Made by a program: the position numbers and the translations under genes. Positions 4,303 to 31,700 of a DNA stretch of 64,000 nt are shown one piece after another. Source of the stretch: Thermomicrobiales bacterium (GTDB taxonomy: Bacteria > Chloroflexota > Chloroflexia > Thermomicrobiales > UBA6265); the NCBI GenBank assembly GCA_965218235.1, contig OZ244595.1, positions 806,561 to 870,560 on the forward strand, written 5' to 3'. The first letter of the stretch is position 1. Each line of letters starts with the position of its first letter. The notes beneath the pieces are model-generated. The model worked only from the letters and a program-made list of their open reading frames with translations. It did not search any database and was not told the origin of the DNA.

Positions 4303-5508
4303 CTAATCCCTCTTGGACCCGTCCTGGTTGGCCTCCCGGCGGAGGGCGGCGTAGCTCTCGTAGCGCTCCCGGCCGATCTCGCCCCGATCGGTCGCGGCGA
4401 TGACGGCGCAGTCTGGCTCGTCGAGGTGCTCGCAGTCGTCGTAGTAGCACTGCCCGAGGACGGGCCGGAACTCGGGGAAGCACTCCGGCAGCTGCTCGCC
4501 CGCGACGGCGCTCATCGCCAGCGACCGCATCCCCGGCGTGTCGGCGACAAAGGTCCCCGGTGCGATCCTGTAGAGCTGCGTACCGATCGTCGTGTGGCGG
4601 CCCTTGCGGTTGGCGGCCGATACGTCGCCGATCAGCCGCTCGCCCGTCGGGTCGATCGCGTTGAGCAGGCTGGACTTGCCGACGCCCGACGGCCCGGCGA
4701 TCGCCGTGACCTTGCCGGTCAGCGCCGCCCGGAGCGCGTCGACGCCGTAGCCGTCGGCGACGCTGAGGAAGTGGAGCGGGTAGACGTTCCGGTAGTCCCG
4801 AAAATGCTCCTCGGCCAGCACCCGGGCGCCGTCGAGCCCGATCGGCTGCCCGTCCGGTCCGGGGTCGGCGGCGGCGAGGTCGAGCTTGTTGATCGCGATC
4901 CGGGGTGGGAGGTGCTGCGCCTCGGCCAGGACGAGGAAGCGGTCCAGCATCCGCAGGTGCGGCTCCGGGAAGCGAAGCGAGAAGAAGAAGATCACCTGGT
5001 CGCCATTGGCCAGGATGACCTGCTCGATCGCCTCGGCGCTGCGGGTCGGCCGGGACAGCACCCCGGTCCGCGGCGCCCGCCACTCGATCTGCCCCTCGTT
5101 CTCGCCGACGTCGATCACCGAGACCTGGTCGCCGACCGCGATCGGGTCGGTCCGGAGCCGGAACCGCTTGAGGCTGCCCTTGATCGTCGCGAGCAGCACC
5201 CGCGGCTCGCCCGAGAGCTGGACGTCGTACCAGAGCCCGTAGGACCGCAGCACCACGCCCGGAACGCCTCGCGGCGTTCGCCGGCCGAGCCCCTCGTCCG
5301 ACCCGGTCGCCGCGTCAACCCGGGATGGGACGTCCGTCATCGCCTGCCGGACGACGGCGCGGTCCGAGGAATCGGCGACCGAACCGGTATCGCTGATCCG
5401 TTCGCTCGAACTGAATCCGGTACCGGGAGCTATTCCGGTTCGAGCGCCGCCGCGGCCGATCGTTCCAGTCTGCTGGCGTCTGCCGCCTCGTCGTCCACGG
5501 TCCGTCAC
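4303..5508 (-). CDS. rsgA: Ribosome small-subunit-dependent GTPase A
   Basis: Circularly permuted GTPase signature NKLDL ... GPSGVGKSSLLNAI ... GRHTT ... ADTPG, plus the C-terminal zinc-finger CYYDDCEHLDEPDCAV. The start is uncertain: GTG 5508 or ATG 5340. Confidence 0.85.
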   Translation of the reverse strand: MTDRGRRGGRRQQTGTIGRGGARTGIAPGTGFSSSERISDTGSVADSSDRAVVRQAMTDVPSRVDAATGSDEGLGRRTPRGVPGVVLRSYGLWYDVQLSGEPRVLLATIKGSLKRFRLRTDPIAVGDQVSVIDVGENEGQIEWRAPRTGVLSRPTRSAEAIEQVILANGDQVIFFFSLRFPEPHLRMLDRFLVLAEAQHLPPRIAINKLDLAAADPGPDGQPIGLDGARVLAEEHFRDYRNVYPLHFLSVADGYGVDALRAALTGKVTAIAGPSGVGKSSLLNAIDPTGERLIGDVSAANRKGRHTTIGTQLYRIAPGTFVADTPGMRSLAMSAVAGEQLPECFPEFRPVLGQCYYDDCEHLDEPDCAVIAATDRGEIGRERYESYAALRREANQDGSKRD

Positions 5509-11246: not shown

Positions 11247-11738
11247 CTACCCGCGGATCACGCCCAGCGTTCGCCGGACCTCGCCGAGGTGGTAGGCGCA
11301 GTGAGCAACCATCCCGATTCCGCCCGTAATCGCCTTCGGATGGGTCCAGGTCGCCGGTTGGGCGACAGCGTTCTGGAGCGCGTCATAGGCTGCCTGGAGC
11401 GTGTCCTGGAGTCGCGTCCACTGGTCGTCATCGACCGCGCCGACCTGCCAGCTGCCGTCCCAGTCGACCTTGCCGGGCTGCTCGCCCCGCAGAAACCGGA
11501 GCGTTACGTTGATGTAGAAGGCGGTGTGGTTGACCTCGGCCGCGATGTTGGAGATCCCGTTGGCGGCCGGCTGGGAAGCCTCTTCAGCCGAGACCGTCGC
11601 CAGCGTCTGGAAGAAGGCGTCGCCGGGGTCGAGGAACATGCTCGGGCTGGAAACGCTCTCGAAGCATTCCTTCAGGACTTCCGACAGGCCGTCGGAGAAC
11701 TGGGTCAACGGGACCGTCTGCCGCGCTGTCATCTTCAA
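11247..11738 (-). CDS. DinB family protein
   Basis: TLATVSAEEAS ... NIAAEVNHTAFY ... AHCAYHLGEVRR (four-helix-bundle DinB-type His motifs). Paralog at 19302..19781. Confidence 0.7.
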   Translation of the reverse strand: MKMTARQTVPLTQFSDGLSEVLKECFESVSSPSMFLDPGDAFFQTLATVSAEEASQPAANGISNIAAEVNHTAFYINVTLRFLRGEQPGKVDWDGSWQVGAVDDDQWTRLQDTLQAAYDALQNAVAQPATWTHPKAITGGIGMVAHCAYHLGEVRRTLGVIRG

Positions 11739-12314: not shown

Positions 12315-14390
12315 ATGGACCTCGTGCTGCTCCTCGCCCGTCTGCTCCTTGCCGGCGTCTTCGTCGTCGCTGGAATCGGCAAGCTGGTCGATCTTCCTGG
12401 CTCCCGCAGAGCCGCCGGCGAATTCGGTGTTCCGGATCGATTCGCCCCGGCGTTCAGTTTAGTCCTGCCCACCGCAGAACTCGTCGTCGCGGCCGCGCTG
12501 CTGCCCGTCGCGACGGCCCGATGGGGGGCGCTCGGGGCGCTGGCGCTGCTGCTGGTCTTCATCGGCGGGATCGGCTACCAGCTCGCGCGTGGTCGCACGC
12601 CCGACTGCCACTGCTTCGGCCAGATTCACTCCGCCCCGGCTGGCTGGCCCACGATCGGCCGCAATGCGGGGCTGGCCGCCATCGCGCTGCTCATCGCCGT
12701 GGGCGGGTGGAGCGATCCGGGGTCAAGCACTGTCGCCTGGTTGAGCGACCTGCCGGGAACAGGGATCGCTCTGGTCATCGCCGGACTGCTCGGGGTCGCG
12801 ATCCTGGCCGGGCTCGCCTGGATCGCCGTCAACCTCATCAGCCAGAACGGGCGTCTGCTGCTCCGGATCGAGGCGGTCGAGCAGGCCCTGGCCACCGCCG
12901 GCACGGCGCCAGCGGTGGCGCCGGTCACCGCCGCCGTGGTCAGCCCGAAGACGTTGCCGCTCGGGCTCGCGGTGGGAACGCCGGCCCCGGCGTTCTCACT
13001 GCCTGATCTCGATGGCGCGATGGTCTCGCTGGACACGCTCCGGGCGGGTGGAACACCGGTCCTGCTGCTCTTCACCGATCCGAACTGCGGCCCCTGTAAC
13101 CAGGTCATGCGCGAGGTCGGCCGGTGGGAGCGGGCCCTCGCGGGGCGCCCGGCGATCGCGGTGCTGAGTCGCGGGTCCCATGAGGCAAACGCCGCGAAGC
13201 GAGACGAGCACGGGCTGAGCACCCTGCTCATTCAGCCCAATCGGGATACCGCCGACGCCTACCGCACGCAGGGCACGCCAGCGGCGGTGTTGATCGGGCC
13301 TGACGGGACCATCGGCGCGCCGACCGCCGGCGGCCTGGACGCCGTTCGGGCGCTCGTCGCGAGCCTGATCCGGAACGGCGCCGCGACCTCGCCGGCGTCC
13401 GCCCCGGCCGACTCCTCGTCCAACGCCGCCCTGGCAACCCCGGCGACCCCGGCGGCCCCACTGTCCAACGACGCGCCCGAGTTCCAGCTCTCGGACCTCA
13501 CGGGCCGGCAGGTCTCGCTGAGCGATTTGCGCGCGGCCCGCCTGCCGGTCGTCCTGTACTTCACCGATCCACAGTGCGACCCCTGCGACGTTCTGATGCC
13601 GGACCTCGGCCGCTGGCAGCGGGACCACGGCGATCGCGTCACGGTCGCGCTCGTGAGCCGCGGCACGCCGGAGGCCAACCTGGCCAAAACGGAACGACAC
13701 GGCGTCGCCAACGTCCTGCTGCAGCGGGACATGGAGATCATCGAGGCCTATGGGGTGACTCAGGCCCCGGCCGTCGTCGTCGTCCAGCCGGACGGCACGC
13801 GAGATGGCGCGCCCGCATATGGTGACCTCGCGGTCAGGATGCTGGTCGCGCGGGTGGCTGATGTGCCGGAGATTCGCCCCGAGACCCCTGAGCCGGTTGC
13901 GACGGGACCGATGCTCCGGATCGGCGATCCCGTCCCGTCGATCCAGCTCCCGGCGATCGGGGGCGAACTGGCCGACCTCGCCAACGTCCGTGGCGCCGAG
14001 ACGGTGCTGCTGTTCTGGAGCCCCACCTGCGGCTACTGCCTGCGGATGCTGAATGACCTGAAGGCGTGGGAGGCCCAGCGGCCGGCCGGGTCCCCCCGGC
14101 TCGTGATCGTCTCGACCGGCACGGCCGAGATGACCGCGGCCCACGGCCTTCGCTCGCCGGTCGTGCTCGACCACGGGGTCGGGGTCGGGCGCCGCTTCGG
14201 GACCCACGGCACGCCGGCCGCAATCCGGATCGACGAGCACGGCAACGTCGCCTCGCCGGTCGCTTCGGGCGTGACGGCCGTCCTGGGGATGCTGTGGGCT
14301 GGCGCTCCGGCACCGATCGATCCAGAGCCGACCGCGACGGTAGTGGCGGCCAACGGGCACGGCGCACTGCCAACCGCGTCAAGGAACTAG
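12315..14390 (+). CDS. MauE/DoxX-type membrane domain fused to three tandem TlpA/redoxin-like thioredoxin-fold domains
   Basis: CAGGAG RBS. The N-terminal ~175 aa carry about 5 hydrophobic helices and the CHCFG motif. Three repeats of the pattern P.F.L.D..G..VSL..L.....V.L.F..P.C..C follow, with CxxC at C258-C261 (13086..13097), C421-C424 (13575..13586) and C572-C575 (14028..14039). Confidence 0.8.
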   Translation: MDLVLLLARLLLAGVFVVAGIGKLVDLPGSRRAAGEFGVPDRFAPAFSLVLPTAELVVAAALLPVATARWGALGALALLLVFIGGIGYQLARGRTPDCHCFGQIHSAPAGWPTIGRNAGLAAIALLIAVGGWSDPGSSTVAWLSDLPGTGIALVIAGLLGVAILAGLAWIAVNLISQNGRLLLRIEAVEQALATAGTAPAVAPVTAAVVSPKTLPLGLAVGTPAPAFSLPDLDGAMVSLDTLRAGGTPVLLLFTDPNCGPCNQVMREVGRWERALAGRPAIAVLSRGSHEANAAKRDEHGLSTLLIQPNRDTADAYRTQGTPAAVLIGPDGTIGAPTAGGLDAVRALVASLIRNGAATSPASAPADSSSNAALATPATPAAPLSNDAPEFQLSDLTGRQVSLSDLRAARLPVVLYFTDPQCDPCDVLMPDLGRWQRDHGDRVTVALVSRGTPEANLAKTERHGVANVLLQRDMEIIEAYGVTQAPAVVVVQPDGTRDGAPAYGDLAVRMLVARVADVPEIRPETPEPVATGPMLRIGDPVPSIQLPAIGGELADLANVRGAETVLLFWSPTCGYCLRMLNDLKAWEAQRPAGSPRLVIVSTGTAEMTAAHGLRSPVVLDHGVGVGRRFGTHGTPAAIRIDEHGNVASPVASGVTAVLGMLWAGAPAPIDPEPTATVVAANGHGALPTASRN

Positions 14391-14493
14391 ATGGCCAACT
14401 GTCGTCCCAGACCGGCCCCGGGACCTGATCCGGGCCGGTCTGCCATGCCAGTCACGGTTCTGATGGGCCAGAGACACGCAGGCGACTATCTGA

Positions 14494-14529
14494 CTATTGC
14501 GAGTAGTGCAATTCCGCGATAGATTGCGA
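14494..14529 (+). promoter_or_regulatory. Promoter-like motif CTATTGCGA-N13-GCGATAGATTGCGA (-35 TTGCGA, 17-nt spacer, -10 TAGATT)
   Basis: -35 at 14497-14502 and -10 at 14520-14525. A near-identical copy lies at 16742..16777. It sits 67 nt upstream of ATG 14597. Confidence 0.45.
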
Positions 14530-14596
14530 TTGATGTGATCCGAACCCTTTCGGCGCAGTACGCGCGATCCCATGTCTGAAAGGAATCCCGAACCCG

Positions 14597-15412
14597 ATGG
14601 AAACCGCACGCCGCGACGGCATCGCGCGATCGATCGCTGCCCGCTTCTCTCGCCGGACCGCGGTCCACGCGTCCGGGATCGGTCTCGCCGCCGGGCTCGT
14701 CGCGACATCGCCTTTGAGCGGTTCAGCGCGGGAAGCGACGCCCGACCCGCTCAGCGAGGACGCGACGTTCCTCTTCGTCCAGTCCGCCGCCTCCGGCACC
14801 TTCGCCGCCAACCCATTGGCTGGCACTCCCACCATTGACAGCGTCTCGGTCGGTGGCGGGGCGGACTACCTCCTGACCCTCGAAGGCCACACCGGCAACA
14901 CGATCTACTTCTCCGACCGGCCCGAGCGCATCTTCGGCGAGGCGCCGACCCAGGCCTTCCTGGATGGGCTCGGTTTCCAGCCCGACAACCCGCCCAACGC
15001 CGCGCTGGTCACCAACGACGCCGACGGCAACGAGGACATCCTCGTCGTCGAGCTACTGACGCCGAGCTATGACGCCGACGCCGGATCGATCACCTATGGG
15101 GCCAATATCCTGACCGCCTACGAGGGAAGCGGGCTGGCGCATGTGGCCGGTCGGCAGCGGGACGAGGATCTGGCGCCGACTTTTGGGGAAGCGAGTCTGT
15201 TCATCGACGACTGCCCCGACATCACCAACTGCTACAACGACAGATTGCAGCCGGTCGGTCTGGTGCCTGGCGGACCGATCGGTCTCTGCTGGGTGTGGAG
15301 CGAGGTGAGTTGTCAACCGTGCGACGGCCAGTCGATCCAGTCGCTGAACGACCTCTGCACGCAAACGTATCCGGACGATTGCGTCAATGGATGCGTCGTC
15401 CTGACCGCCTGA
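14597..15412 (+). CDS. TAT-signal secreted protein with an 8-cysteine C-terminal module
   Basis: The N-terminus FSRRTAVHASGIGLAAGLVA resembles a twin-arginine signal. All 8 Cys (206, 212, 231, 239, 242, 254, 262, 266) lie in the last 66 residues (nt ~15212..15409). No family recognised. Confidence 0.65.
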   Translation: METARRDGIARSIAARFSRRTAVHASGIGLAAGLVATSPLSGSAREATPDPLSEDATFLFVQSAASGTFAANPLAGTPTIDSVSVGGGADYLLTLEGHTGNTIYFSDRPERIFGEAPTQAFLDGLGFQPDNPPNAALVTNDADGNEDILVVELLTPSYDADAGSITYGANILTAYEGSGLAHVAGRQRDEDLAPTFGEASLFIDDCPDITNCYNDRLQPVGLVPGGPIGLCWVWSEVSCQPCDGQSIQSLNDLCTQTYPDDCVNGCVVLTA

Positions 15413-15488: not shown

Positions 15489-16532
15489 ATGGGCCGTTCC
15501 CTTGTCGCCATCGCCTGTCTCCTCATGCTCAGTCTCAACGTCTGGTCCGTCCCCACCAGCGCTCAAGAGGCAACGCCCGCCGCAACTCCTGATGGCGCAG
15601 CCTCGCAGGCCACGGACTGCGTCGCCGGGACCGAGGAGCGCAACGCCGAGGTCGCTCGCCAGTGGGAGGCGGTCTGGGGCAATGAGGACGATGCCGCACT
15701 GGAGGCTCTGTCCCAGCCCGATATCACGCATCACGTGACCGATACCGAAGATATCTCCAACGTGGCGGACCTCCGCTCCCGGGTCCGGGCCTTCGCCGCG
15801 GCTTTCTCCGATCACACGCTGACGGTCGATGAGGTCATCGCCGATGGTGACTACGTCGTGGTCCGCTGGACCGCGACTGGCACCCAGACCGGCCCCTTCT
15901 TCGATCTGGAGCCGAGTGGCGTCGAGGCGACCTGGACCGGCATCAACATCTTTCGCTTCGAGTGTGGGCTCGTCGCTGAGAGCTGGAACGAGTTCGACGG
16001 GATCGGGCTCCGGGCGCAGCTGACCGGCGCGGACGACCCGACGGTGGGCGGTCCGGCGACACCGACCGCAGCCGCCACGCCGGCGGCCGACTGTGCCCCG
16101 ACCACGGAGCAGGACGTCGCCGGCGTCGCCACCCGCTGGGCGGATGTCTGGGATTCAGGCGATGTCGATCTCTACGACGAGCTGGCGTCTCCGGACTCCA
16201 TCCATCACTGGGGACTGGGCGATGACACGGCGTCCCTGGACGACTTCAAGGATCGGATCGGCGATTTCTTCACGGCCTTCCCGGACCTGACATCCACCGC
16301 GGAGGAGCCGATCGTCGAGGGCAATCTGGTCGCGATCCGCTGGTCGGAGACCGGAACGCAGACCGGCCCGCTGTTCGGCTTCGCGCCGACCGGCACCGAG
16401 GTCACCTGGACTGGGATCAACATCTTCCGGGTTGAGTGCGGCCAGGTCGTCGAGAGCTGGAGCGAGGCCGACGGGTTCGGGCTCCGCGACCAGCTTGAGG
16501 CCGCCTCCGGCGCCGCGACACCTGCCGCCTGA
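15489..16532 (+). CDS. Secreted protein with two tandem SnoaL-like (predicted ester cyclase / NTF2-like) domains
   Basis: Sec-type signal MGRSLVAIACLLMLSLNVWSVPTSAQ. Two internal repeats of ..RW..VW....D......HH....D....F..R....F.AF.D......VI..GD.V..RW..TGTQTGP.F...PTG.E..WTGINIFR.ECG..VESW.E.D, joined by a Pro/Thr/Ala linker. Confidence 0.75.
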   Translation: MGRSLVAIACLLMLSLNVWSVPTSAQEATPAATPDGAASQATDCVAGTEERNAEVARQWEAVWGNEDDAALEALSQPDITHHVTDTEDISNVADLRSRVRAFAAAFSDHTLTVDEVIADGDYVVVRWTATGTQTGPFFDLEPSGVEATWTGINIFRFECGLVAESWNEFDGIGLRAQLTGADDPTVGGPATPTAAATPAADCAPTTEQDVAGVATRWADVWDSGDVDLYDELASPDSIHHWGLGDDTASLDDFKDRIGDFFTAFPDLTSTAEEPIVEGNLVAIRWSETGTQTGPLFGFAPTGTEVTWTGINIFRVECGQVVESWSEADGFGLRDQLEAASGAATPAA

Positions 16533-16972: not shown

Positions 16973-18001
16973 ATGCGTCGTTCAGTAGTCGCCATCGCCT
17001 GGCTCCTCATGCTCACGCTCAACGTCTGGCTTACGCCCGCCAACGCTCAGGACGCGACGCCGGGCGCCGCAACGCCCTCCGCTAATTGCGCCATGAGCAC
17101 GGAGGAGCAGAACGTCAAAGTCGCCCGGCAGTGGTACGACGTCTGGGGCTCCGAAGACTCGGCCGTATTTGAGGACATCGTCCAGCCCGACATCATCCAT
17201 CACGGGGGCGTCGGCGAGGACGCATCCAACGTGGTAGACCTTCGCGCCCGAAGCGATGTCTTCGCCGTGGCGTTCCCGGACCTCAGCCTCGTGGTCGAGC
17301 AAGTCATCGCCGATGGCGACTACGTCGCGGTCCGTTGGATCGCGACCGGAACCCAGGACGGTCCGTTCTTCGACATCGAGCCGAGCGGTGTCGAGGCGAC
17401 CTGGACCGGCATCAACATCTTCCGCTTCGAGTGCGGCAAGATCGCCGAGAACTGGAATGAGTTCGATGTCGTTGGTCTCCAGGCGCAACTGACCGGGATG
17501 ACGGACCCGATCGTCGGCACCCTCGCGACCCCAGCCGCGGACGCCACGCCCGCCACCGGCTGCGCGCCGACCACTGAGCAGGACGTCGCCGACGTGGCCG
17601 CGCGCTGGGGCGACCTGTGGGACGAGGGCGACATCAACGTCTTCGACGAGCTCGCCTCCCCGGATTCCGTCCATCATTGGGGTCTGGGTCAGGACACGAC
17701 GTCCCTCGCCGACTTCAAGGATCGGATCGGCACCCTCTTCGCTGGTTTCTCCGACCTGCGCCAGACCAATGAGGAGCCGATCGTCGACGGCGACCTGGTC
17801 GCGATCCGCTGGACCATGACCGGCACGCAGGACGGGCCGATCTTCGGCTTCGCGCCGACCGGCGCCGAGGTCACCTGGACCGGCATCAACATCTTCCGGG
17901 TCGCGTGCGGCCAGATCGTCGAGAGCTGGAGCGAGGTCGACAGCCTCGGGCTCAAGTCCCAGCTGGAGGCGGCGTCCAGCACCGCGACGCCCGCCGCCTG
18001 A
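16973..18001 (+). CDS. Secreted tandem SnoaL-like (ester cyclase-like) protein, paralog of 15489..16532
   Basis: GGAAGGA RBS. Signal MRRSVVAIAWLLMLTLNVWLTPANAQ. Same two-domain layout and the same four Cys positions as the upstream paralog. Confidence 0.75.
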   Translation: MRRSVVAIAWLLMLTLNVWLTPANAQDATPGAATPSANCAMSTEEQNVKVARQWYDVWGSEDSAVFEDIVQPDIIHHGGVGEDASNVVDLRARSDVFAVAFPDLSLVVEQVIADGDYVAVRWIATGTQDGPFFDIEPSGVEATWTGINIFRFECGKIAENWNEFDVVGLQAQLTGMTDPIVGTLATPAADATPATGCAPTTEQDVADVAARWGDLWDEGDINVFDELASPDSVHHWGLGQDTTSLADFKDRIGTLFAGFSDLRQTNEEPIVDGDLVAIRWTMTGTQDGPIFGFAPTGAEVTWTGINIFRVACGQIVESWSEVDSLGLKSQLEAASSTATPAA

Positions 18002-18045
18002 CCTCCCTCACCGGAGCGTTGGCCTGGCTCACAGCCAATGCCAGC

Positions 18046-18100
18046 GAACAGCCGGCGCCCGGGGCGATGTCCTGGGTGCCGGCTGTTCGGTTTTCGTTTG
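18046..18100 (+). terminator. Rho-independent terminator candidate
   Basis: 11-bp stem GAACAGCCGGC (18046-18056) / GCCGGCTGTTC (18078-18088), followed by GGTTTTCGTTTG. Confidence 0.6.
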
Positions 18101-19301: not shown

Positions 19302-19781
19302 TCAGGCCCGACCCAGCGGCAAGGACCGGCGGATCTCGCCGAGATGATAGGTGCAGTGCGCAATCAGGGCGATCCCGCGCTGGATCGGCTCGTCGTCCTG
19401 CCAGGCCGACGGGTCCGCCATCAGCATCAGTAGCTCGTCGTAGGCCGTGCCGAGCCCCGCGACCAGCGCCGCCCACTGCGCGTCGTCCACCTCACCAACC
19501 AGCCAGCTTGCGTCCCAGTCGACTCCCTCGGGCTGGCGTCCTTGCAGGTACTCGCCGATCGTCACGATGTAATAGGTCGTGTGGTTGACCTGGGCGGCGA
19601 TGTTCGAGGCGCCGGGGGCGACCGGCCGCGAAGCCTGTTCGGCGCTGACCGTCGCCAGCGTCTCGAACATCGCCGTCCCCCGGTCGAGGTACATCCCTTC
19701 GACCTTCTCGAACGTCTCGCGGAGGACGGCCATCATCGCCGCGGTCACGTCACCGAGGGGGTAGGTCTGTGGCGTTGTCAT
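19302..19781 (-). CDS. DinB family protein (paralog of 11247..11738)
   Basis: GGGAGTGAAG RBS before ATG 19781. TLATVSAEQAS ... NIAAQVNHTTYY ... AHCTYHLGEIRR. Confidence 0.7.
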   Translation of the reverse strand: MTTPQTYPLGDVTAAMMAVLRETFEKVEGMYLDRGTAMFETLATVSAEQASRPVAPGASNIAAQVNHTTYYIVTIGEYLQGRQPEGVDWDASWLVGEVDDAQWAALVAGLGTAYDELLMLMADPSAWQDDEPIQRGIALIAHCTYHLGEIRRSLPLGRA

Positions 19782-19822
19782 GCTGTCTTCACTCCCGCAG
19801 TGCTGGCGAAAAACGATGTCGT

Positions 19823-19849
19823 CCATCCCCTTCGTTCTGGAGGGGATGG
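19823..19849 (-). terminator. 9-bp stem hairpin downstream of the LLM gene
   Basis: CCATCCCCT (19823-19831) / AGGGGATGG (19841-19849). On the minus strand a T5 run follows 9 nt later. Confidence 0.4.
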
Positions 19850-25538: not shown

Positions 25539-28247
25539 TCAACGGTCGTCGCGAACCTGATTGCCGGACATCGCCGCCCGGACCCGTTCCGGGGTAAATG
25601 GAACGGTCCGGAGGCGGGCGCCGGTGGCGGCAAAGATCGCGTTGCCGACGGCGGCGACCATCGGGCAGATCGCGCCCTCGCCGGCGCCGCATGACGGCTC
25701 GTCCGGCCGATCGATCAGGTCGATCGCGATCGCCGGGATGCCGGCGAAGCCGAGGATGGGGTAGCTGTCCCAGTCAAGTGCGGTGACGCGCGTCTCGTCC
25801 CAGGTCACCTCCTCGATCAGCGCCCGGCTGATTCCCTGGATGACGTTGCCCTCGATCTGGTTGCGGACGCCGTCCGGGTTCACGATTAGCCCGCAGTCAT
25901 GGGCGACGTAGACCCGGCTGACGCGGACGGCGCCGCTCGCCGGGACGACTTCGACCTCCGCGACGATGGCGACGTAGGCGTAGGCCGTTTCGTACCGGGC
26001 GAAGGCGACGCCGCGCCCGGTCAGCGCACCGTCGTCATTCGGCACTGGTCTGGCGGCATTCGACCCGGCGGGTCGTTGCTGCCAGCCGGCCAGCACGGCG
26101 GCCCGCTCGATCACGGCGATGGCGCGGGGATCGTCCAGGTGCCGGAGCCGGAACGCGACCGGGTCGGCCCCGGCGAGGGCGGCCAGCTCATCCATCGCCG
26201 TCTCGTTGGCGGTCGTGTTGGCGAGGCCACCGAGGCTGCGCAGGGCCGAGGGCCGCAGCGTTGGGTTCGTCACCCAGTGGGCGGTCAGCCGCTGGTTCGG
26301 GAAGCGGTAACTGGTCAGCGCGTTGCGGGTCCCACCGCCCCGGCCGAGCGGGGCGTAGGTGACCGGCGGCGACTTGAGCTGCGCGGCCAGCAGGTTGCCC
26401 GGCTGACCGCTGGGCCGGGTCGAGTGGGTCGGCGTCCAGACCTCGTAGGCCCAGGCGACGATGTCGTCGTCCGCACCGAGCCCGGTCCGGACCTCACAGA
26501 CCATCGCCGGCCCCTTGCCCTCCCAGGCGAACTCGCCCTGCCGCGACCAGATCACCCGGACGGGCCGTCCGACCGCCCGCGAGAGCAGGGCCGCGTCGGC
26601 CGCGACGTCGTCCGCCCCGTTGTGCCCGTAACAACCCGGTCCCTCCATATGGACGACGCGGACCGACGCTTCCGGCAGCCCGAGCACCGGCGCCAGCGCC
26701 TCTCGCAGCGAGAAGACGCCCTGCGACGCGCACCAGACCGTCGCGCCGTCCGGCCGGACATCGGCGACGGCGCAGGACGGCCCGATCGAGGCGTGGGCCT
26801 GCCACGGGTGCCGGTACGTCGCGGACAGGGTCTGCGTCGCCGCCGCGAAGCCCAGGTCGAGATCGCCGTCCGTCGCGATGTCCTGGTCGATGGTCGGTGC
26901 GTCGCGGATCGCGTCGAAGCGGTCGGCGAACGGCGGCAATCGGGCCGGCTCGGTCAACGTCGCCCGGAGCGCCTGGGCCGCGGCCAGCGCCTGGGCGTCC
27001 CGCTCGGCGACGACGCCGAGGAAGCTGCCGCTCCGGACCACGGCGACGATCCCTGGCAGGCCGTCGAGCGACGACTCGTCGACCGACACCAGCGTCGCGC
27101 CGACCCCGTCGATGGTCCGGACCATCGGCCGGATGACGCGGCCGTGGAGCATCCCGTCCAGCGTCAGGTCATGGACGTACGCTGCCCCGCCGGTCAGCTT
27201 GGCGAGCAGATCCACCCGCGGGACGGACTGCCCGACGACCTGATAGGCAGCCGGGTCCTTGAGCGTCACCTCGCCCGGCTCAACGATGGTCTGCCCGTCG
27301 ACGGGCGGATCACCGATCAGGTCGCCGTAGCCGATGCCAGGACCAAGCGAGGACGGATCGCGGATCACGCCGTCGGAGACGACCAGCCGATCGGACGGCT
27401 GATCGAGGCGCTGGGCGGCCCGGTCAAGCAGCGTTGTCCGGGCCCCGGCGGCGGCCCGCCGGAGGATGGGGCCAGCGCTCTGGATCGTCTTGCTGCCGGC
27501 CGTCGTTCCCTGATCCGGGGTCGTGGCGGTGTCGCCAGCGATCATCGTCAGGCAGTGGATTGGCAGATCGAGCTCCTCGGCGACGATCTGCGTCAGGGCG
27601 GTGCGGACCCCGGTCCCGAGCTCGACCTTGCCGGCCCGGATCGTGACGCGGCCGTCCGGGTGGAGCTCGATCAAGTCATTGAGCCGCTCGCCTGGTTCGC
27701 TCTCGGTCGCCGGTTCCGGTGTCGCGGGTGGGGTAAGGGACAACGCGGCGGCCGGGAGCGCCGCCGACAGTTTCGCCATCGCCCGGGCGGCGCGGCGGAC
27801 GGCCCGCATGATCCGGACGTGGGCGCCGCAGCGGCAGAGGTTGCCAGCGAGCGCGGCGTGGATCTCGGCGTTGGTCGGGTCGGGGGTCGTCGCGAGCAGC
27901 GCCGCGGTCGCGACGATCATGCCGGGGATGCAGTAGCCGCACTGGGCGGCCTGCTCATCGAGAAACGCCCGCTGGATCGGGTGAAGATCATTGCCGGGCG
28001 CGAGCCCTTCCAGCGTGGTGATCGCCGCCCCGGCCGCCTCCCGCACCGTCGTGACGCAGGACCGGATCGGCTCGCCGTCCCGCAGCACCGTGCAGACGCC
28101 GCACTGCGACAGCGCGCAGCCGATCTTCGCCCCATTGAGCCCGAGGTCGTTGCGCAGGGCGAGCAGCAGCAGGCTGTCCGGTTCGGCCGCGATGTCGTGG
28201 GTGTGGCCGTTGATGGTCAGAGTCATCGGGATTGTGGTTAGAGTCAT
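25539..28247 (-). CDS. Fused [2Fe-2S] small subunit and molybdopterin-binding large subunit of an IorA/IorB-type (aldehyde oxidase / xanthine dehydrogenase family) oxidoreductase
   Basis: The N-terminal ~155 aa carry both ferredoxin cluster motifs (GCALSQCGVCTV...SC and QCGYCIPG...CRCG). An Ala/Pro linker leads into IorB-like sequence (GKVELGTGVRTALTQIVAEELD...TPDQGTTAGS). No signal peptide. Confidence 0.8.
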   Translation of the reverse strand: MTLTTIPMTLTINGHTHDIAAEPDSLLLLALRNDLGLNGAKIGCALSQCGVCTVLRDGEPIRSCVTTVREAAGAAITTLEGLAPGNDLHPIQRAFLDEQAAQCGYCIPGMIVATAALLATTPDPTNAEIHAALAGNLCRCGAHVRIMRAVRRAARAMAKLSAALPAAALSLTPPATPEPATESEPGERLNDLIELHPDGRVTIRAGKVELGTGVRTALTQIVAEELDLPIHCLTMIAGDTATTPDQGTTAGSKTIQSAGPILRRAAAGARTTLLDRAAQRLDQPSDRLVVSDGVIRDPSSLGPGIGYGDLIGDPPVDGQTIVEPGEVTLKDPAAYQVVGQSVPRVDLLAKLTGGAAYVHDLTLDGMLHGRVIRPMVRTIDGVGATLVSVDESSLDGLPGIVAVVRSGSFLGVVAERDAQALAAAQALRATLTEPARLPPFADRFDAIRDAPTIDQDIATDGDLDLGFAAATQTLSATYRHPWQAHASIGPSCAVADVRPDGATVWCASQGVFSLREALAPVLGLPEASVRVVHMEGPGCYGHNGADDVAADAALLSRAVGRPVRVIWSRQGEFAWEGKGPAMVCEVRTGLGADDDIVAWAYEVWTPTHSTRPSGQPGNLLAAQLKSPPVTYAPLGRGGGTRNALTSYRFPNQRLTAHWVTNPTLRPSALRSLGGLANTTANETAMDELAALAGADPVAFRLRHLDDPRAIAVIERAAVLAGWQQRPAGSNAARPVPNDDGALTGRGVAFARYETAYAYVAIVAEVEVVPASGAVRVSRVYVAHDCGLIVNPDGVRNQIEGNVIQGISRALIEEVTWDETRVTALDWDSYPILGFAGIPAIAIDLIDRPDEPSCGAGEGAICPMVAAVGNAIFAATGARLRTVPFTPERVRAAMSGNQVRDDR

Positions 28248-28769: not shown

Positions 28770-31700
28770 GTGGTTGGCAAGCTCGACGGTGTGGCCAATT
28801 CGGATCCCGATCTCAGGACCGCGTCCAGCAAGCCGACGGACAAGCTTCCCGCAAAGGGCACTGTTCGGGTCGGTCTGTCCCCTGAGCGGGCAATCCATGT
28901 CAGCCGGGCAGTGCGGAAAAGAGCTCGAGAGTCGGAGCAGGAGCAGGGCATCAACACGCTGTTTGCGGCCTGCGGGACGTTGAAATGGCGTGAGTCCGCT
29001 ACGGGCAGTGGTTCCGACGCCTGGCGTTATGCCCCGCTGCTTCTCCTGCCGGTGCGAATCGAAGAGAATGTCCGGGCCGGCCGTCATACTCTGTTGGCGA
29101 CGGGCGACGACCCGGAATACAACCAGACACTAGCCGAGCGACTTCGCCGCGATTTTCGGATCGAGTTGCCCATCGACGTCGATGTCAGCGACGCGGACGA
29201 CATGGCCGGACTGGCGGCGATACTCCAGGCAGTTCGGTCGGCGGTCGCACTGATGCCGGACTGGGAGGTTCTGGACGAAGTAAATGTCGGGACGTTCAAG
29301 TTTCACAAGCTGCGGATGTTCCAGGATCTTGATGAGCACCGCGATGTCGCGATCCGTCACCCGATCGTGCAGGCACTTGCCGACCCAAACCGGACGGTCG
29401 CGGGCCTGCCGTCCGATGTGCCTCGCCCCGAGGATCTGGACCGGGTGGTCACACCGAAGCAGACCTTTAGTGTGCTGGACGCTGATGCGAGCCAGATGTG
29501 GGCGATCCAGGCGGCGAAACGGGGTAGCAACCTGATCGTTCAGGGGCCGCCGGGTACGGGCAAGAGCCAGACGATCGCGAATATCATCGCCGAATGCCTC
29601 GCGGCCAACAAGACGGTGCTCTTCGTCTCTGAGAAAGCCGCTGCAATCGAGGTCGTTCATCGTCGCCTGACCCAGCGCGGTCTGGGCGAGTTCTGCCTGA
29701 TGCTCCATAGCCAGAAATCGAATAAGCTCCAAATCGTTCGCGACCTTGCGGCGCGGCTCACTCCGGCGACGGTCGATGGTGACCCGCGACAGGAAGATCA
29801 TGATCTTGACCGGCTCGGGCAGGTTCGCGAGCGATTGAATGCCTACGCGACCTCGCTGCATCGGCGACACGAGCCGCTGGGCCGGTCAGCATTCGAAGTC
29901 CACGGCCTGCTCACAGCCCTCGACGACAACGGAGAACTTCCTGATCTCGTTGCCTCAATGCCTTCGGTCTCGATGCTGACATGGAGTGCTCTGGAAGGCT
30001 GGCAGACCATCGTTGGGGAAGCGGTTCGATCTGCACCAGTTCTGGCGGAAGGCGACCTTCACATCTGGGCGGGTTTTCGGCTCCGGGAGATCGGCTTTAC
30101 TGAGCGCTCGGAACTCACCCAGCTCCTGACTGATATGTCTGCGACGTTGAACGATACCGAAGGATCGGGCGCCCGGCTAGCGTCGACGCTCGGGATGCCT
30201 GCGCCCGAAACGATTCCGGCCGCCAGGGCACTTCGAGATCTGGCGGAAGCGATCCCGGTCGAGCGCGTCCTGCGTGCTGACTGGCTCGGGGCCGACCAGC
30301 ACGCCAGAGCGACGATGCTGTTGAACGAGGCGATGGAGCGGACCCGCTCGGCCACCGAGATGCGGACTGGATTGTTCTCGCGCTACGGTGACCGCATCCT
30401 GCGGGTCGCCACCCCGGAGACGATCGCGACCTATGAGACGGGGTGGTTCAGTCGCCTGTTCTCGGGGCCTCACCGTGGAGCCCGGGCTGCCGTTCGAGCT
30501 GCGTCGATCGACGCTAAGCAGCGATCGGTCACCAAGGAACTCGCCGATCTCCGTCGCGCAGCCGAACTCCATGGACAACTCGCCTGGTTCGGGGAGCAGG
30601 AGACTCCCCTCCGGACAGCACTCGGAGTCGATCTCGACCCAACGGGCATCGCGGACGCCGGCGCGCTCGCCGAGCGTCAGGCTGACCTCGCTGCCTCAGC
30701 CAGTCTCATCGACCGATATCGTCTCCGGTCCGTTCCGGCGTCGCTGGTCGCGGCGATCGGTCAGCCAGGCGCCGGAGTCCGTGTAGCGACGGCGCTTTCC
30801 GAATTGAACGACTGCATGACCCGACTTATTAGCCACCTCGCGGGATTGCAACGGTTCTTCGAACCGGAAACAATGGTGGTTCGAAGCGATACCACCATCG
30901 TCCCAATCGATCAGGGGACCGTTGGGCTCGGCCGGGAATGGCTAGAGGCGCGCCTCCAGCGGATGGACGACCTTGACGACTGGCTACGGGCGCAACGGGC
31001 GGCCGATGCCATCCGGGCCGCCGGTCTCACGGATGCCGTTGCTGAGCTCGAGCGCAAGGGCGTCGACACCGTCCGCTGGGTGGATACCCTCACCCGAACG
31101 GCCCTGCGGCGTTGGCTGGATTACGCCTATCGTCAGGACGGGATGCTCTCCCGCTTCAGCGGTGCCGACCACGAGCGGGACATCTCCGCGTTTCGGGATC
31201 TCGACCGCCGTCAGGTCGACTTCGCGGTGCGGCGCATCCGCCGTCGTCTAGCCACGGGCCAGCCCAACCTGAATGGGGCCGTGGGAGAGCCGGGCATTCT
31301 GCTCAAGGAGGCGAACAAGCGGCGCAACGTCAAGCCGCTGCGCTGGCTGTTCGCCCGGATCCCGACCCTGGTCCCGATCCTCAAGCCCTGTCTGATGATG
31401 AGTCCATTATCGGTTGCCCAGTTCCTGCCAGCCGACCAGTACCACTTCGATGTGATCATGTTCGATGAGGCATCGCAGGTTCGCCCGCACGACGCGATCG
31501 GCTCGATCATGCGGGGGACACAGCTCATCGTCGCCGGTGACGAGCAGCAGTTGCCCCCGACGAGTTTCTTCGACCGGTCCTCGACCGAGACTGAGGATGA
31601 TTCAGACGAAGATGACAGTCTTGCGGCGATGGAGAGTATCCTCGGCGCTTTGTCAGCCAAGCAGATGCCGACCGCGCCGCTGCTCTGGCACTACCGAAGC

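What the first reader, a model, noticed from the sequence alone, without database searches (positions are those of the whole stretch)
12315..15412. MauE/DoxX membrane domain fused to three CxxC thioredoxin-fold domains, next to a TAT-signal protein with an 8-Cys tail
The 691-aa product of 12315..14390 has a MauE-like N-terminus with about 5 helices and a CHCFG motif. Three sequential TlpA/redoxin-like domains follow, each with its own CxxC (CGPC, CDPC, CGYC). A triple array on one membrane anchor is unusual.

The next gene (14597..15412) encodes a protein with a twin-arginine-like leader. Its only cysteines, eight of them, cluster in the last 66 residues. The two downstream secreted SnoaL-type proteins each carry four conserved Cys.

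In methylamine dehydrogenase systems, MauE and the thioredoxin-like MauD are needed to mature the TAT-exported, disulfide-rich small subunit. By analogy, this locus could be a self-contained extracytoplasmic disulfide-maturation module with dedicated client proteins. That is inference only.
Basis: partly seen in the sequence, partly recalled or inferred. Interest (0 to 1): 0.7.

Follow-up and report, generated by a model that had tools for sequence, protein, structure and literature searches.

The report
MauE–MauD-type disulfide machine with tagged clients
A membrane enzyme of the newly recognised MauE type, fused to three thioredoxin-like domains, sits beside exported cysteine-rich proteins that carry a shared address tag also found on methylamine dehydrogenase's small subunit, which points to a widespread, undescribed pairing between this disulfide machine and its clients.

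Summary
Gene 12315-14390 encodes a MauE membrane domain (five helices, invariant PDCHCFG) followed by three CxxC thioredoxin-fold domains. Gene 14597-15412 encodes a twin-arginine-leader protein whose eight Cys all lie in the last 66 residues. Two secreted tandem-SnoaL proteins follow, each with four invariant Cys.

The triple array is not rare. Hundreds of Thermomicrobiales and Chloroflexia proteins have three to five such domains, and two-domain forms occur in many phyla. A 2026 preprint shows that MauE can replace DsbB and notes MauE-thioredoxin fusions.

What appears new:
- In 42 of 83 loci, spanning at least seven phyla, the gene beside the fusion encodes a very Cys-rich protein (median 38 Cys). 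It carries a conserved leader, [F/L]-D-x-L-[A/T]-[R/K]-x-L-A…[S/T]-R-R.
- Genuine MauA leaders match this leader.
- TatA genes sit directly beside the fusion in three loci.
- Three Streptomyces plasmids encode enzyme and client as one protein.

The MauE/MauD/MauA analogy is therefore well supported, but "dedicated" and "extracytoplasmic" are not settled. The 271-aa family is also found away from the fusion. The charge distribution strongly predicts that the active sites face the cytoplasm. If that is true, disulfides would form before Tat export.

The parts
12315..14390 (+). Gene for the 691-aa MauE-MauD-type fusion: membrane domain plus three CxxC thioredoxin-fold domains
   Evidence: ORF and GC3. 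Pfam and NCBIfam matches. 100% identical database protein P0001.
12315..12707 (+). MauE four-helix core (residues 1-131), with invariant K23 in helix 1 and E55 in helix 2
   Evidence: PF07291 at 100.5 bits. Invariant columns. AlphaFold2 helices. Aligns with Paracoccus MauE residues 9-163.
12606..12614 (+). C98-H99-C100, the CXC redox motif within invariant PDCHCFG, in the loop between helices 3 and 4
   Evidence: CHC occurs in 79 of 83 loci and 111 of 120 database hits. The active-site role of CXC was shown for two MauE homologues (bioRxiv 10.64898/2026.03.05.709764).
12756..12887 (+). Fifth transmembrane helix, continuing into the conserved amphipathic helix QNGRLLxR (residues 148-191). It corresponds to the MauD membrane anchor and places the thioredoxin domains on the same side as the CXC loop.
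   Evidence: AlphaFold2 helix 148-191. Q177, G179, R180 and R184 are conserved. MauD has 'LMRQVGLLHER' after its own anchor.
12963..13373 (+). Thioredoxin-fold domain 1, type A (MauD-like), active site CGPC at 13086-13097
   Evidence: TIGR02661 MauD matches residues 217-353. Aligns with MauD residues 44-178. BLASTP against Paracoccus MauD gives E 1.6e-13.
13467..13799 (+). Thioredoxin-fold domain 2, also type A (47% identical to domain 1), active site CDPC at 13575-13586. Most relatives carry a type B domain at this position.
   Evidence: The closest solved structures are ResA.
13923..14264 (+). Thioredoxin-fold domain 3, type B, active site CGYC at 14028-14039
   Evidence: The closest solved chain is 3kcm, a Geobacter thioredoxin-family protein.
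14597..15412 (+). Gene for the 271-aa client candidate (uncharacterised family, no Pfam or NCBIfam match)
14597..14728 (+). Leader (residues 1-44): n-region motif RDGIARSIA, invariant twin arginine R19-R20 (14651-14656), weakly hydrophobic h-region, and an SGSA|RE cleavage-like site
   Evidence: Alignment. The leader HMM recurs beside MauE-thioredoxin genes. Pfam TAT_signal does not reach E<=1 for this protein.
14768..15211 (+). Conserved beta-rich core domain (residues 58-205) of unknown function
   Evidence: AlphaFold2 pLDDT is about 80-95 in this stretch. No structural or sequence relative in the PDB.
15212..15409 (+). Cys-rich tail (residues 206-271) with eight conserved Cys. The spacing between Cys varies across the family.
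15489..16532 (+). Secreted tandem-SnoaL protein 1, with four invariant Cys (44, 159, 202, 317), one pair per SnoaL domain. Possible further client.
16973..18001 (+). Secreted tandem-SnoaL protein 2, a paralogue (68.5% identity), with the same four Cys
18045..18089 (+). Terminator-like hairpin (20-bp stem followed by a T-run) just after the last SnoaL gene. No such site was detected between the four genes.
   Evidence: This is a consensus scan only.

Best explanation
The 691-aa protein is a single-chain MauE-MauD system with extra domains.

**Membrane part.** It is a true MauE domain, with the CXC redox pair (here CHC) and the conserved Lys and Glu that are proposed to hold a quinone. A fifth helix, equivalent to MauD's anchor, tethers three CxxC thioredoxin-fold domains on the same face as the CXC loop. 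Two of these are MauD-like (CGPC, CDPC). The third belongs to a second conserved type (CGYC).

**Proposed mechanism (inferred).** Electrons taken from substrate cysteines pass from the thioredoxin domains to the CXC pair and then to membrane quinone. The tethered domains therefore introduce disulfides and probably also shuffle them, much like a membrane-bound DsbB-DsbA or PDI-like array.

**Clients.** The clients are exported Cys-rich proteins that carry a special leader: an [F/L]-D-x-L-[A/T]-[R/K]-x-L-A motif a few residues before an invariant twin arginine. The 271-aa neighbour is one such client, and its eight tail Cys would form four disulfides. The two SnoaL proteins, each with two Cys pairs, are plausible additional substrates.

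**What is shown and what is inferred.**
- Shown: the domain homologies, the conserved residues, and the recurrent adjacency between fusion and leader-bearing gene.
- Taken from the literature: MauE oxidase activity.
- Inferred: the direction of electron flow, the client relationship, and an outward-facing orientation.
For: **Homology.**
- MauE and thioredoxin-fold matches.
- Alignment to genuine MauE and MauD.
- K23, E55, C98, C100, F101 and G102 are invariant. These are the residues that the MauE preprint singles out. That preprint also shows that two MauE homologues complement E. coli dsbB and need the CXC pair.
- Five helices place the CXC loop and the thioredoxin domains on one side.
- An A+B domain core is conserved in nearly all 83 loci.

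**Client link.**
- The iterated leader HMM finds 57 ORFs in 42 of 83 loci.
- 46 of the 57 lie within 1.5 kb of the fusion. The density is 0.21 per kb there, against 0.018 per kb at 1.5-5 kb and 0.006 per kb beyond 5 kb.
- 53 of the 57 are on the same strand as the fusion.
- These proteins have a median of 38 Cys (11% of residues) and up to 100 Cys in 551 aa.
- Of 57 loci with at least 1.5 kb on both flanks, 35 have such an ORF.
- Genuine MauA leaders match the leader HMM: E 5.4e-4 and 3.1e-3 in a database of 14,778 ORFs, after my recalled MauA leader was verified.
- The mau gene order is E-D-A.
- Three Streptomyces plasmids encode MauE, a thioredoxin domain and a Cys-rich domain as one polypeptide.
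- Closer relatives keep the 271-aa gene beside the fusion, sometimes upstream and sometimes downstream.
- A terminator-like site appears only after the fourth gene.

**Outward orientation.**
- The thioredoxin domains resemble ResA, TlpA and MauD.
- The co-located SnoaL proteins have Sec-type signals and invariant Cys pairs.
Against: - **Topology.** Lys+Arg counts are strongly skewed toward the CXC/thioredoxin side: loop 1 has 3.9, loop 3 has 3.3 and the stretch after helix 5 has 2.2. The N-terminus has 0, loop 2 has 0.3 and loop 4 has 0.3. The positive-inside rule would therefore put the active sites in the cytoplasm. The same skew is visible in Paracoccus MauE and MauD (sequences).
- **Tat leaders.** Invariant twin-arginine leaders are not obviously needed if oxidation happens after export.
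- **Incomplete linkage.** About half of the loci, including most A-B-B three-domain fusions, have no leader-bearing gene nearby. A 65%-identical homologue of the 271-aa protein lies away from any fusion.
- **No direct activity data.** The Foldseek search found no similarity to DsbB or VKOR. The 'DsbB-like' function therefore rests on one preprint about distant, unfused homologues.
- **Weak MauA match.** The MauA-leader match is short and scores only 17-19 bits.
Confidence: 0.55

Rival explanations
1. The components are the same but the orientation is opposite. The CXC loop and all thioredoxin domains face the cytoplasm. The machine oxidises and folds leader-tagged clients at the inner face of the membrane, so that they can be exported already disulfide-bonded by the Tat pathway, which transports folded proteins. 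The n-region motif of the leader would serve as the docking or hold-back signal.
For: - **Charge bias.** 9.4 Lys+Arg on the CXC/thioredoxin side against 0.6 on the other, with acidic residues at the N-terminus and in loop 4.
- **MauD anchor.** Genuine MauD has an uncharged N-terminus and Arg residues after its anchor. From memory and unverified, periplasmic ResA and CcmG show the reverse pattern.
- **Twin arginine.** It is 100% and 95% conserved in leaders from at least seven phyla.
- **TatA adjacency.** TatA-like genes lie 0-357 bp from the fusion in L051, L053 and L058. Only one other occurs in about 1.1 Mb of flanking sequence.
- **Streptomyces single-chain form.** An RR motif, a weakly hydrophobic segment and a positively charged stretch sit between the thioredoxin domain and the Cys-rich domain. 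This is the signature of the Tat-dependent last transmembrane segment in dual Sec/Tat membrane proteins, whose preceding loop is cytoplasmic (PMC5449189, PMC3471235).
- **Biological rationale.** It would explain why mau clusters carry their own MauE and MauD for the Tat-leader protein MauA.
Against: - Two MauE homologues restore DsbA-dependent phenotypes in E. coli lacking dsbB, and TOPCONS predicts a periplasmic CXC loop for them (bioRxiv 10.64898/2026.03.05.709764).
- The closest relatives of the thioredoxin domains are extracytoplasmic.
- The Sec-signal SnoaL proteins in the same gene cluster could not be served by an inward-facing enzyme.
- Keeping dozens of disulfides intact in a reducing cytoplasm is difficult.
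- Many of the positive residues are invariant and could be functional rather than topogenic.
- No topology predictor could be run here.
Confidence: 0.3
2. The fusion is simply the organism's general extracytoplasmic disulfide oxidase, and its proximity to the 271-aa and SnoaL genes in this lineage has no functional meaning. The neighbours are ordinary secreted proteins among many substrates.
For: - The A-B-B three-domain fusion sits beside rsgA and other housekeeping genes in 11 Thermomicrobiales loci. rsgA also lies 6.8 kb upstream in the window.
- Most A-B-B fusions lack leader-bearing neighbours.
- The 271-aa family is large and dispersed.
- L089, a 52%-identical A-A-B fusion, has no such neighbour.
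- The preprint argues that MauE is a generalist.
Against: - Leader-bearing Cys-rich genes are about 35-fold enriched within 1.5 kb of the fusion compared with beyond 5 kb, and 53 of 57 are on the same strand.
- The 271-aa gene stays beside the fusion even though its position differs: downstream in the window, upstream in L001, L088 and L004.
- A single-chain enzyme-client form exists in Streptomyces.
Confidence: 0.2
3. The thioredoxin domains act as reductants or isomerases only, like TlpA and ResA. They would keep cysteines reduced, for example for metal or cofactor insertion, with MauE supplying electrons.
For: - The best sequence relatives with solved structures are ResA reductases.
- ResA, TlpA and StoA appear among the NCBIfam hits.
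- CGPC is the classical reducing thioredoxin motif (general knowledge).
- The preprint cites an earlier report that MauE may be a reductase.
Against: - MauE has a single CXC pair and no second Cys pair to carry electrons across the membrane as DsbD or CcdA do.
- Complementation of dsbB indicates oxidase activity (preprint).
- The clients are repeat-rich, EGF- or Stig1-like Cys-rich proteins typical of disulfide-stabilised modules.
- All ResA and TlpA NCBIfam scores fall below their cut-offs.
Confidence: 0.07
4. The eight-Cys tail of the 271-aa protein binds a metal or an Fe-S cluster that is loaded in the cytoplasm, which would explain the Tat leader. It would not form disulfides, so the protein would not be a substrate of the fusion.
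For: Tat leaders are typical of cofactor-containing proteins. The tail contains one CxxC (C239-x2-C242).
Against: - Cys spacing varies through insertions and deletions across the family, and the family matches no Pfam or NCBIfam model, Fe-S families included.
- Proteins with the same leader in other loci have 20-100 Cys in repeat modules that are implausible as metal sites.
- Adjacency to a thiol oxidase recurs.
Confidence: 0.08

Closest known systems
MauE + MauD + MauA of methylamine dehydrogenase (mau) clusters (Paracoccus denitrificans, Methylobacterium)
   Same: - The N-terminal domain is homologous to MauE, including RGRTxDCxCF.
- Thioredoxin domain 1 is homologous to MauD, including a comparable membrane anchor followed by a Q-x-G-x-L-x-x-R motif.
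- The gene order is MauE, then MauD, then a Cys-rich protein with a long twin-arginine leader.
- MauA leaders match the leader profile.
   Different: - MauE and MauD are fused here, and two further thioredoxin-fold domains are added.
- No mauA, mauB or mauG lies in the window, and the client matches no Pfam family, MauA's included.
- CXC is CHC rather than CGC.
- The MauD equivalog score is below its cut-off: 89 against 188.6.
Stand-alone MauE as a DsbB-like disulfide-forming enzyme (Gonzalez et al., bioRxiv 10.64898/2026.03.05.709764)
   Same: The CXC motif followed by F-G in the loop between helices 3 and 4, together with the conserved Lys in helix 1 and Glu in helix 2, are all invariant here. 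The preprint notes that 8.2% of MauE entries are fused to thioredoxin-superfamily domains.
   Different: - The preprint does not mention multi-domain arrays, the leader, Cys-rich neighbours or a Tat link.
- It describes MauE as a generalist with a periplasmic active site. Here the charge bias points the other way, and clients are genomically linked.
VKOR-thioredoxin fusions and DsbB-DsbA
   Same: The logic matches: a small helical membrane protein with a redox Cys pair near a quinone is joined to, or partnered with, a thioredoxin-fold domain by an extra transmembrane helix.
   Different: No detectable fold or sequence relationship: the best Foldseek match to the PDB has E 0.86, with no DsbB or VKOR among the hits, and there is no Pfam hit. 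The motif is CXC rather than CXXC, and there are three catalytic domains rather than one.
Protein disulfide isomerase (PDI) and DsbC
   Same: Several thioredoxin-fold domains in one chain serve substrates with many disulfides. Domain 3 has the DsbC-type CGYC dipeptide (general knowledge).
   Different: All three domains here are catalytic and membrane-tethered. No reductive recycling partner (DsbD or CcdA) was seen among the neighbouring genes whose families were scanned, 4.3-25.3 kb of the window. An isomerase role is speculation.
Dual Sec/Tat-inserted membrane proteins (actinobacterial Rieske Sco2149, Sco3746; PMC3471235, PMC5449189)
   Same: The Streptomyces single-chain relatives (L091, L092) have Sec-type helices, then a cytoplasm-type loop, a twin arginine, a weakly hydrophobic last segment, a positive patch and a C-terminal domain.
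   Different: This applies to the Streptomyces relatives, not to the window protein. Their loop would hold a whole thioredoxin domain, and the exported domain is Cys-rich rather than cofactor-binding. The resemblance is untested.
Streptomyces mauE/mauD candidate RiPP clusters (decRiPPter, PMC7794033)
   Same: mauE and mauD homologues occur outside mau clusters, beside genes for small proteins with at least 8 Cys.
   Different: Those were read as peptide natural-product clusters. No leader motif, Tat link or thioredoxin arrays were described.

Membership tests
MauE (PF07291) | Profile match above the curated threshold | tested here: met
   100.5 bits against a cut-off of 27, residues 1-128. Aligns with Paracoccus MauE at E 6e-24.
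MauE (PF07291) | CXC redox motif followed by F-G in the loop between helices 3 and 4, plus conserved Lys (helix 1) and Glu (helix 2) | tested here: met
   C98, H99, C100, F101, G102, K23 and E55 are invariant in 18 and in 32 sequences. The loop position is confirmed by the AlphaFold2 model.
MauE (PF07291) | CXC loop faces the periplasm or outside | tested here: inconclusive
   Lys+Arg counts of 9.4 against 0.6 predict the opposite. The preprint's TOPCONS prediction and dsbB complementation support an outward orientation for distant homologues. No topology predictor was available.
MauE (PF07291) | Quinone-dependent disulfide-forming activity (replaces DsbB) | not testable with these tools
   Known only from the preprint, for two other MauE proteins.
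MauD (TIGR02661) | Equivalog-level profile score | tested here: not met
   89.2 bits against a cut-off of 188.6. The relationship is homologous but not equivalog.
MauD (TIGR02661) | Membrane anchor followed by a thioredoxin fold with CxxC | tested here: met
   Helix 148-191 followed by CGPC. Aligns with MauD residues 44-178.
mau (methylamine dehydrogenase) gene cluster | Presence of mauA and mauB (and mauG) beside mauE and mauD | tested here: not met
   None among the neighbouring genes whose families were scanned, 4.3-25.3 kb of the window. The client matches no Pfam family, MauA's included.
DsbB / VKOR | Sequence or fold homology | tested here: not met
   No Pfam hit. The best Foldseek match to the PDB has E 0.86, with no DsbB or VKOR among the hits. 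This is a functional analogy only.
TlpA/ResA-like redoxins (PF08534, PF00578) | Thioredoxin fold with CxxC and a profile match above threshold | tested here: met
   AhpC-TSA at 123.9 bits and Redoxin at 84.1 bits, three stretches each. The ResA subfamily model scores below its cut-off, 90.8 against 170.
Twin-arginine (Tat) signal peptide | S/T-R-R-x-hydrophobic motif, weakly hydrophobic h-region, AxA-type cleavage site | tested here: met
   FSRRTAV has an invariant RR. Across 56 leaders the two Arg are 100% and 95% conserved.
Twin-arginine (Tat) signal peptide | Match to curated Tat-signal profiles (PF10518, TIGR01409) | tested here: not met
   No hit for the window protein at E<=1 in Pfam or at E<=0.01 in NCBIfam. 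A related leader from L044 gives PF10518 at E 0.092.
Twin-arginine (Tat) signal peptide | Tat-dependent export | not testable with these tools
   Indirect support only: TatA-like genes lie beside the fusion in three loci.
SnoaL-like (PF07366) | Profile match above threshold | tested here: met
   200.7 and 203.5 bits, two domains in each protein.

The most novel reading that the evidence does not exclude
MauE-MauD-type machines, including the classical ones of methylamine dehydrogenase clusters, face the cytoplasm. They form the disulfides of a dedicated set of Cys-rich proteins before these are exported folded by the Tat pathway. The conserved n-region motif ([F/L]-D-x-L-[A/T]-[R/K]-x-L-A) ahead of the twin arginine would be the signal that routes clients to the machine. 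This would be a natural, widespread system for oxidative folding before export. It would also explain why MauA needs its own MauE and MauD.
Probability: 0.3. Interest if true: 0.85.

Novelty: new variant of a known kind. Interest (0 to 1): 0.68.

Why it matters
**Background.** MauE is only now being recognised as possibly the second most common disulfide-forming membrane enzyme in bacteria. How it finds substrates is unknown, and what MauE and MauD do for the methylamine dehydrogenase small subunit has been open since the 1990s.

**What this locus adds.**
- The analysis points to a defined clientele: Cys-rich proteins that carry a recognisable leader shared with MauA.
- These clients are genomically linked to MauE-thioredoxin fusions in at least seven phyla.
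- TatA genes sometimes lie beside the fusion, and three Streptomyces plasmids encode enzyme and client as a single chain.

**Why it is useful.**
- It supplies concrete, testable enzyme-substrate pairs.
- It gives a sequence tag for predicting substrates.
- It exposes a sharp topological question. If the active sites face inward, as the charge distribution suggests, this would be a natural route for disulfide formation before Tat export.
- It could also be of practical interest for producing disulfide-rich proteins.

Tried and rejected
**Searches that found nothing useful**
- Foldseek against the PDB gave nothing significant for the 271-aa model (best E 0.039, TM about 0.2) or for the MauE-domain model (best E 0.86).
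- A profile search of the 271-aa family against PDB sequences found nothing below E 0.029.
- Exact-sequence look-ups of P0001 and P0133 were not on record, so the source genome could not be retrieved.
- The Rfam and tRNA scans of the window were empty.
- The sigma-70 scan found no plausible promoter for the cluster.
- Literature searches for MauE together with twin-arginine, cysteine-rich or DoxX found nothing relevant beyond the 2026 preprint and the decRiPPter paper. The 'Alvarez' reductase paper could not be located.
- tblastn of the MauE domain against plasmids returned only three Streptomyces records, probably because of low-complexity filtering.
- The preprint's supplementary sequences are not held, so the charge bias of the two tested MauE proteins could not be compared.

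**Ideas rejected**
- That the full-length 271-aa family is the universal partner of the fusion. It lies beside the fusion in only 3 of 83 loci (window, L001, L004), plus L087 and L088.
- That extra hydrophobic segments separate the thioredoxin domains. The segments found are thioredoxin-core strands.
- That Ppx, CHAD and M20 synteny extends to the window. Only rsgA is shared.

Full report
**1. Observation**

The four genes exist as described and have coding-type composition, with GC3 of 0.83-0.88 in a window of about 68% GC.

- The 691-aa product of 12315-14390 matches Pfam MauE over residues 1-128 (100.5 bits) and DoxX weakly. AhpC-TSA, Redoxin and Thioredoxin_2 each match three stretches, at about 217-353, 385-495 and 537-650.
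- NCBIfam places the first thioredoxin domain nearest MauD and the others nearest ResA-like redoxins. All of these scores fall below the equivalog cut-offs.
- Its only cysteines are C98/C100 (CHC), CGPC at 258, CDPC at 421 and CGYC at 572.
- An AlphaFold2 model of residues 1-192 (pLDDT 85) shows five long helices. The CHC motif sits in the loop between helices 3 and 4. The fifth helix (148-191) runs on into a conserved amphipathic stretch, QNGRLLxR.
- With five helices, the CHC loop and the thioredoxin domains must lie on the same side of the membrane.
- The 271-aa product of 14597-15412 matches no Pfam or NCBIfam model. All eight of its Cys lie in the last 66 residues.
- The two downstream proteins are tandem SnoaL proteins with Sec-like signal peptides. 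Their four Cys are invariant in 115 homologues.

**2. How common the fusion is**

- The fusion family is large. Of 8000 scored candidates, 1213 hit at E<1e-5. Most of the 120 best are 650-710 aa with the same layout, and some are 810-1133 aa with four or five CxxC domains. Source names point to Thermomicrobiales and Chloroflexota.
- A scan of one genome per species returned 80 loci. Two-domain forms of about 490-530 aa occur in Actinomycetota, Acidobacteriota, Gemmatimonadota, Verrucomicrobiota, Nitrospirota, Pseudomonadota and others. Three-domain forms occur mainly in Thermomicrobiales and Chloroflexia.
- Nearly all share an 'A' domain (MauD-like, usually CGPC) followed by one or more 'B' domains (CGFC or CGYC).
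- The window protein belongs to a minority A-A-B subtype. Its domains 1 and 2 are 47% identical, and both resemble MauD. Most relatives are A-B-B.
- The triple array is therefore not unusual in this lineage.

**3. Relation to the true Mau proteins**

- I recalled the MauA leader from memory and then verified it. It is 100% identical to mauA on a Methylobacterium plasmid and 72-79% identical in Paracoccus.
- The annotated clusters have the order mauF-B-E-D-A.
- The fusion profile aligns Paracoccus MauE over residues 9-163, including RGRTqIDCGCF. It aligns MauD residues 44-178 onto thioredoxin domain 1.
- MauD's anchor is followed by LMRQVGLLHER, which resembles the fusion's ISQNGRLLLRIEA.
- The protein is therefore a MauE-MauD fusion with two added domains.

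**4. What is known about MauE**

- A March 2026 preprint (bioRxiv 10.64898/2026.03.05.709764) reports that MauE from Caldithrix and Desulfatibacillum restores motility and PhoA activity in E. coli lacking dsbB.
- It shows that the CXC pair is required, and that a Lys in helix 1, a Glu in helix 2 and the F-G after CXC are conserved.
- It reports that TOPCONS puts the CXC loop in the periplasm, and that 8.2% of MauE entries are fused to thioredoxin-superfamily domains.
- K23, E55, C98, C100, F101 and G102 are invariant in the family studied here.
- The preprint does not mention Tat, leaders, Cys-rich neighbours or multi-domain arrays.
- Foldseek finds no DsbB or VKOR similarity for the MauE-domain model. 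'DsbB-like' is thus a functional analogy, not family membership.

**5. The neighbour and its leader**

- The 271-aa family is large and unannotated: 897 hits in the clustered database, and 3304 representatives at E<=0.001 in the exhaustive search.
- Each member has three parts. First comes a leader with invariant RR, then a conserved beta-rich core (residues 58-205), and finally a Cys-rich tail in which the spacing between Cys varies.
- The AlphaFold2 model has pLDDT 75.8. Neither the model nor the family profile has a relative in the PDB.
- Searching the 83 loci with the full-length profile found the family beside the fusion only in the window, in L001 (three copies) and in L004 (two copies).
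- Clustering of neighbouring ORFs revealed a different pattern. In many distant loci the adjacent gene on the same strand encodes an extremely Cys-rich protein whose N-terminus resembles the leader of the 271-aa protein.
- A leader-only HMM, iterated three times, finds 57 ORFs in 42 of 83 loci.
  - 46 of them lie within 1.5 kb of the fusion. Densities are 0.21, 0.018 and 0.006 per kb in the near, middle and far bins.
  - 53 of the 57 are on the same strand as the fusion.
  - 35 of 57 loci with adequate flanks have one.
- The passenger regions have a median of 38 Cys and up to 100 Cys in 551 aa. One contains Stig1-type repeats.
- The leader consensus is MDSHRFDDLARSLAKRLSRRQALKGLGAGLAAAL. Its Asp is 96% conserved, and the two Arg are 100% and 95% conserved.
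- In a database of 14,778 ORFs, genuine MauA leaders match at E 5.4e-4 (Paracoccus, FRFDDMVEKLSRRVAGQTSRRSVIG) and 3.1e-3 (Methylobacterium). A generic Tat signal elsewhere in the window reaches only E 0.03. The match is short and should be regarded as suggestive.
- An acidobacterial neighbour with 76 Cys carries a visibly related leader that falls below the threshold.

**6. Further links between enzyme, clients and Tat**

- Three Streptomyces plasmids encode one 510-aa polypeptide. It consists of MauE (CHC), a fifth helix, a thioredoxin domain (CGAC), the segment 'RSTIARRALLFASATMVPTVISTRAMARG…RPKRVK', and a Cys-rich domain. PGAP annotates it as a single MauE/DoxX protein. This gene fusion supports the enzyme-client relationship.
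- TatA-like genes lie 0-357 bp from the fusion in L051, L053 and L058. Only one other TatA-like gene occurs in all the flanks, 9.7 kb away. By my own estimate, three of four events falling in about 6% of the sequence gives p of roughly 7e-4.
- An earlier genome-mining paper noted Streptomyces mauE and mauD homologues beside genes for precursors with at least 8 Cys (PMC7794033).

**7. How specific the link is in this lineage**

- Closer relatives keep the 271-aa and SnoaL genes beside the fusion, but on varying sides. L001 (71% identity) and L088 (67%) have them upstream. L087 (55%) has a frameshifted copy 2 kb upstream. L089 (52%) has none.
- A Zn-dependent alcohol dehydrogenase gene follows the fusion in L001 and L089. 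In the window it comes after the three inserted genes.
- rsgA lies immediately beside the fusion in 11 distant Thermomicrobiales loci and is 6.8 kb upstream here.
- A homologue of the 271-aa protein at 65% identity lies far from any fusion, and only one copy is present in this window.
- A terminator-like hairpin appears only after the second SnoaL gene.
- Taken together, the fusion looks like a core enzyme. Client genes tend to gather near it but are not restricted to that position.

**8. The unresolved point: orientation**

- Across the family, Lys+Arg average 3.9 in loop 1, 3.3 in loop 3 (the CXC loop) and 2.2 after helix 5.
- On the opposite side they average 0 at the N-terminus, 0.3 in loop 2 and 0.3 in loop 4, and that side is acidic.
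- Paracoccus MauE and MauD show the same pattern (sequences).
- By the positive-inside rule, the CXC loop and the thioredoxin domains would be cytoplasmic.
- Three further observations fit this reading.
  - The clients have invariant twin-arginine leaders.
  - TatA genes lie beside the fusion in three loci.
  - In the Streptomyces single-chain form, an RR motif, a weakly hydrophobic segment and a positive patch lie between the thioredoxin and Cys-rich domains. This is the signature of the Tat-dependent final segment of dual Sec/Tat membrane proteins (PMC5449189, PMC3471235).
- This coherent alternative would have the machine form disulfides at the cytoplasmic face before Tat export.
- Against it stand four points.
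  - The preprint reports complementation of dsbB.
  - The nearest relatives of the thioredoxin domains are extracytoplasmic.
  - Sec-type SnoaL proteins with invariant Cys pairs are co-located with the fusion.
  - Many of the positive residues are invariant and may be functional rather than topogenic.
- I could not run a topology predictor. I commit to the outward-facing model at moderate confidence and give the inward-facing model about 0.3.

**9. Verdict**

- The sequence observation is confirmed.
- The protein is a new variant of a known kind, the MauE-thioredoxin fusions.
- The recurrent pairing with clients tagged by a MauA-like leader, and the link to Tat, do not appear in the literature I could search.

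Noticed in passing
L091 3749-5281 and L092 3938-5473 (Streptomyces sp. NBC_01562 and NBC_01450 plasmids); a third copy on the NBC_01483 plasmid NZ_CP109439.1: A single 510-aa protein joins MauE (CHC), a fifth helix, one thioredoxin domain (CGAC), an internal twin-arginine segment with a weakly hydrophobic stretch and a positive patch, and a Cys-rich C-terminal domain. Enzyme and client are fused, and the layout looks like a dual Sec/Tat membrane protein.
   Followed up: partly
L051 12082-12387, L053 10585-10959, L058 9020-9814: TatA-like genes lie 0-357 bp from the MauE-thioredoxin gene in three loci (two Chloroflexia, one Deltaproteobacteria). Only one other TatA-like ORF was found in all flanks (L057, 9.7 kb away).
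   Followed up: partly
window 12315-12890 (fusion residues 1-192); also Paracoccus MauE and MauD in L083: Lys+Arg are concentrated on the CXC/thioredoxin side (9.4 on average) and almost absent on the other side (0.6). This contradicts the outward orientation reported for MauE if the positive-inside rule applies.
   Followed up: partly
window 4303-5508 (-): An RsgA GTPase gene. Its 50%-identical homologue sits immediately upstream and divergent from the three-domain fusion in 11 distant Thermomicrobiales loci. This suggests the fusion occupies an old, core genomic position and that the intervening 6.8 kb is lineage-specific.
   Followed up: partly
window 11247-11738 (-) and 19302-19826 (-): Two DinB_2-family paralogues (51.6% identical) bracket the block that runs from the fusion to the alcohol dehydrogenase. 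DinB_2 genes also lie upstream of the fusion in L001 and L089. DinB-superfamily proteins are often thiol-dependent enzymes (general knowledge).
   Followed up: no
window 28770-33395 (+): A 1541-aa helicase-like ORF with Walker-type motifs sits in an island of lower G+C (0.62-0.65). The island lies between two paralogous molybdenum-hydroxylase-like genes (25539-28247 and 33486-35987, both on the - strand). The second has a Tat-like VSRRTLLKGSGG leader. This may be an inserted mobile or defence gene.
   Followed up: no
L001 9106-9360: A short SnoaL fragment lies in the 1-kb gap just upstream of the fusion. It is probably the remnant of a second SnoaL gene.
   Followed up: no
P0071 and P0077 (database proteins, 709 and 713 aa): These three-domain fusions carry an extra C-terminal mini-domain with six Cys (CxxCxxxC…CxxxC…C) directly after the last thioredoxin domain, with no intervening hydrophobic segment.
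   Followed up: no
all loci; window 12606-12614: The middle residue of the CXC motif is His in 79 of 83 genome loci and in 111 of 120 database hits (Arg in 8). The preprint reports mostly Gly or Ala for MauE in general. One of the two genome-scan search patterns contained CHC, so the genome figure is biased.
   Followed up: partly
L087 612-1542: The homologue of the 271-aa gene is split between two reading frames, with the leader in one and the body in the other. This is either an assembly error or a pseudogene.
   Followed up: no
L065 7019-8167: An acidobacterial ORF of 383 aa with 76 Cys lies directly upstream of the fusion. It has a visibly related leader (ILDEVSRFMASHLKRREAM) that the leader HMM misses, so the count of 42 of 83 loci is probably an underestimate.
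   Followed up: partly
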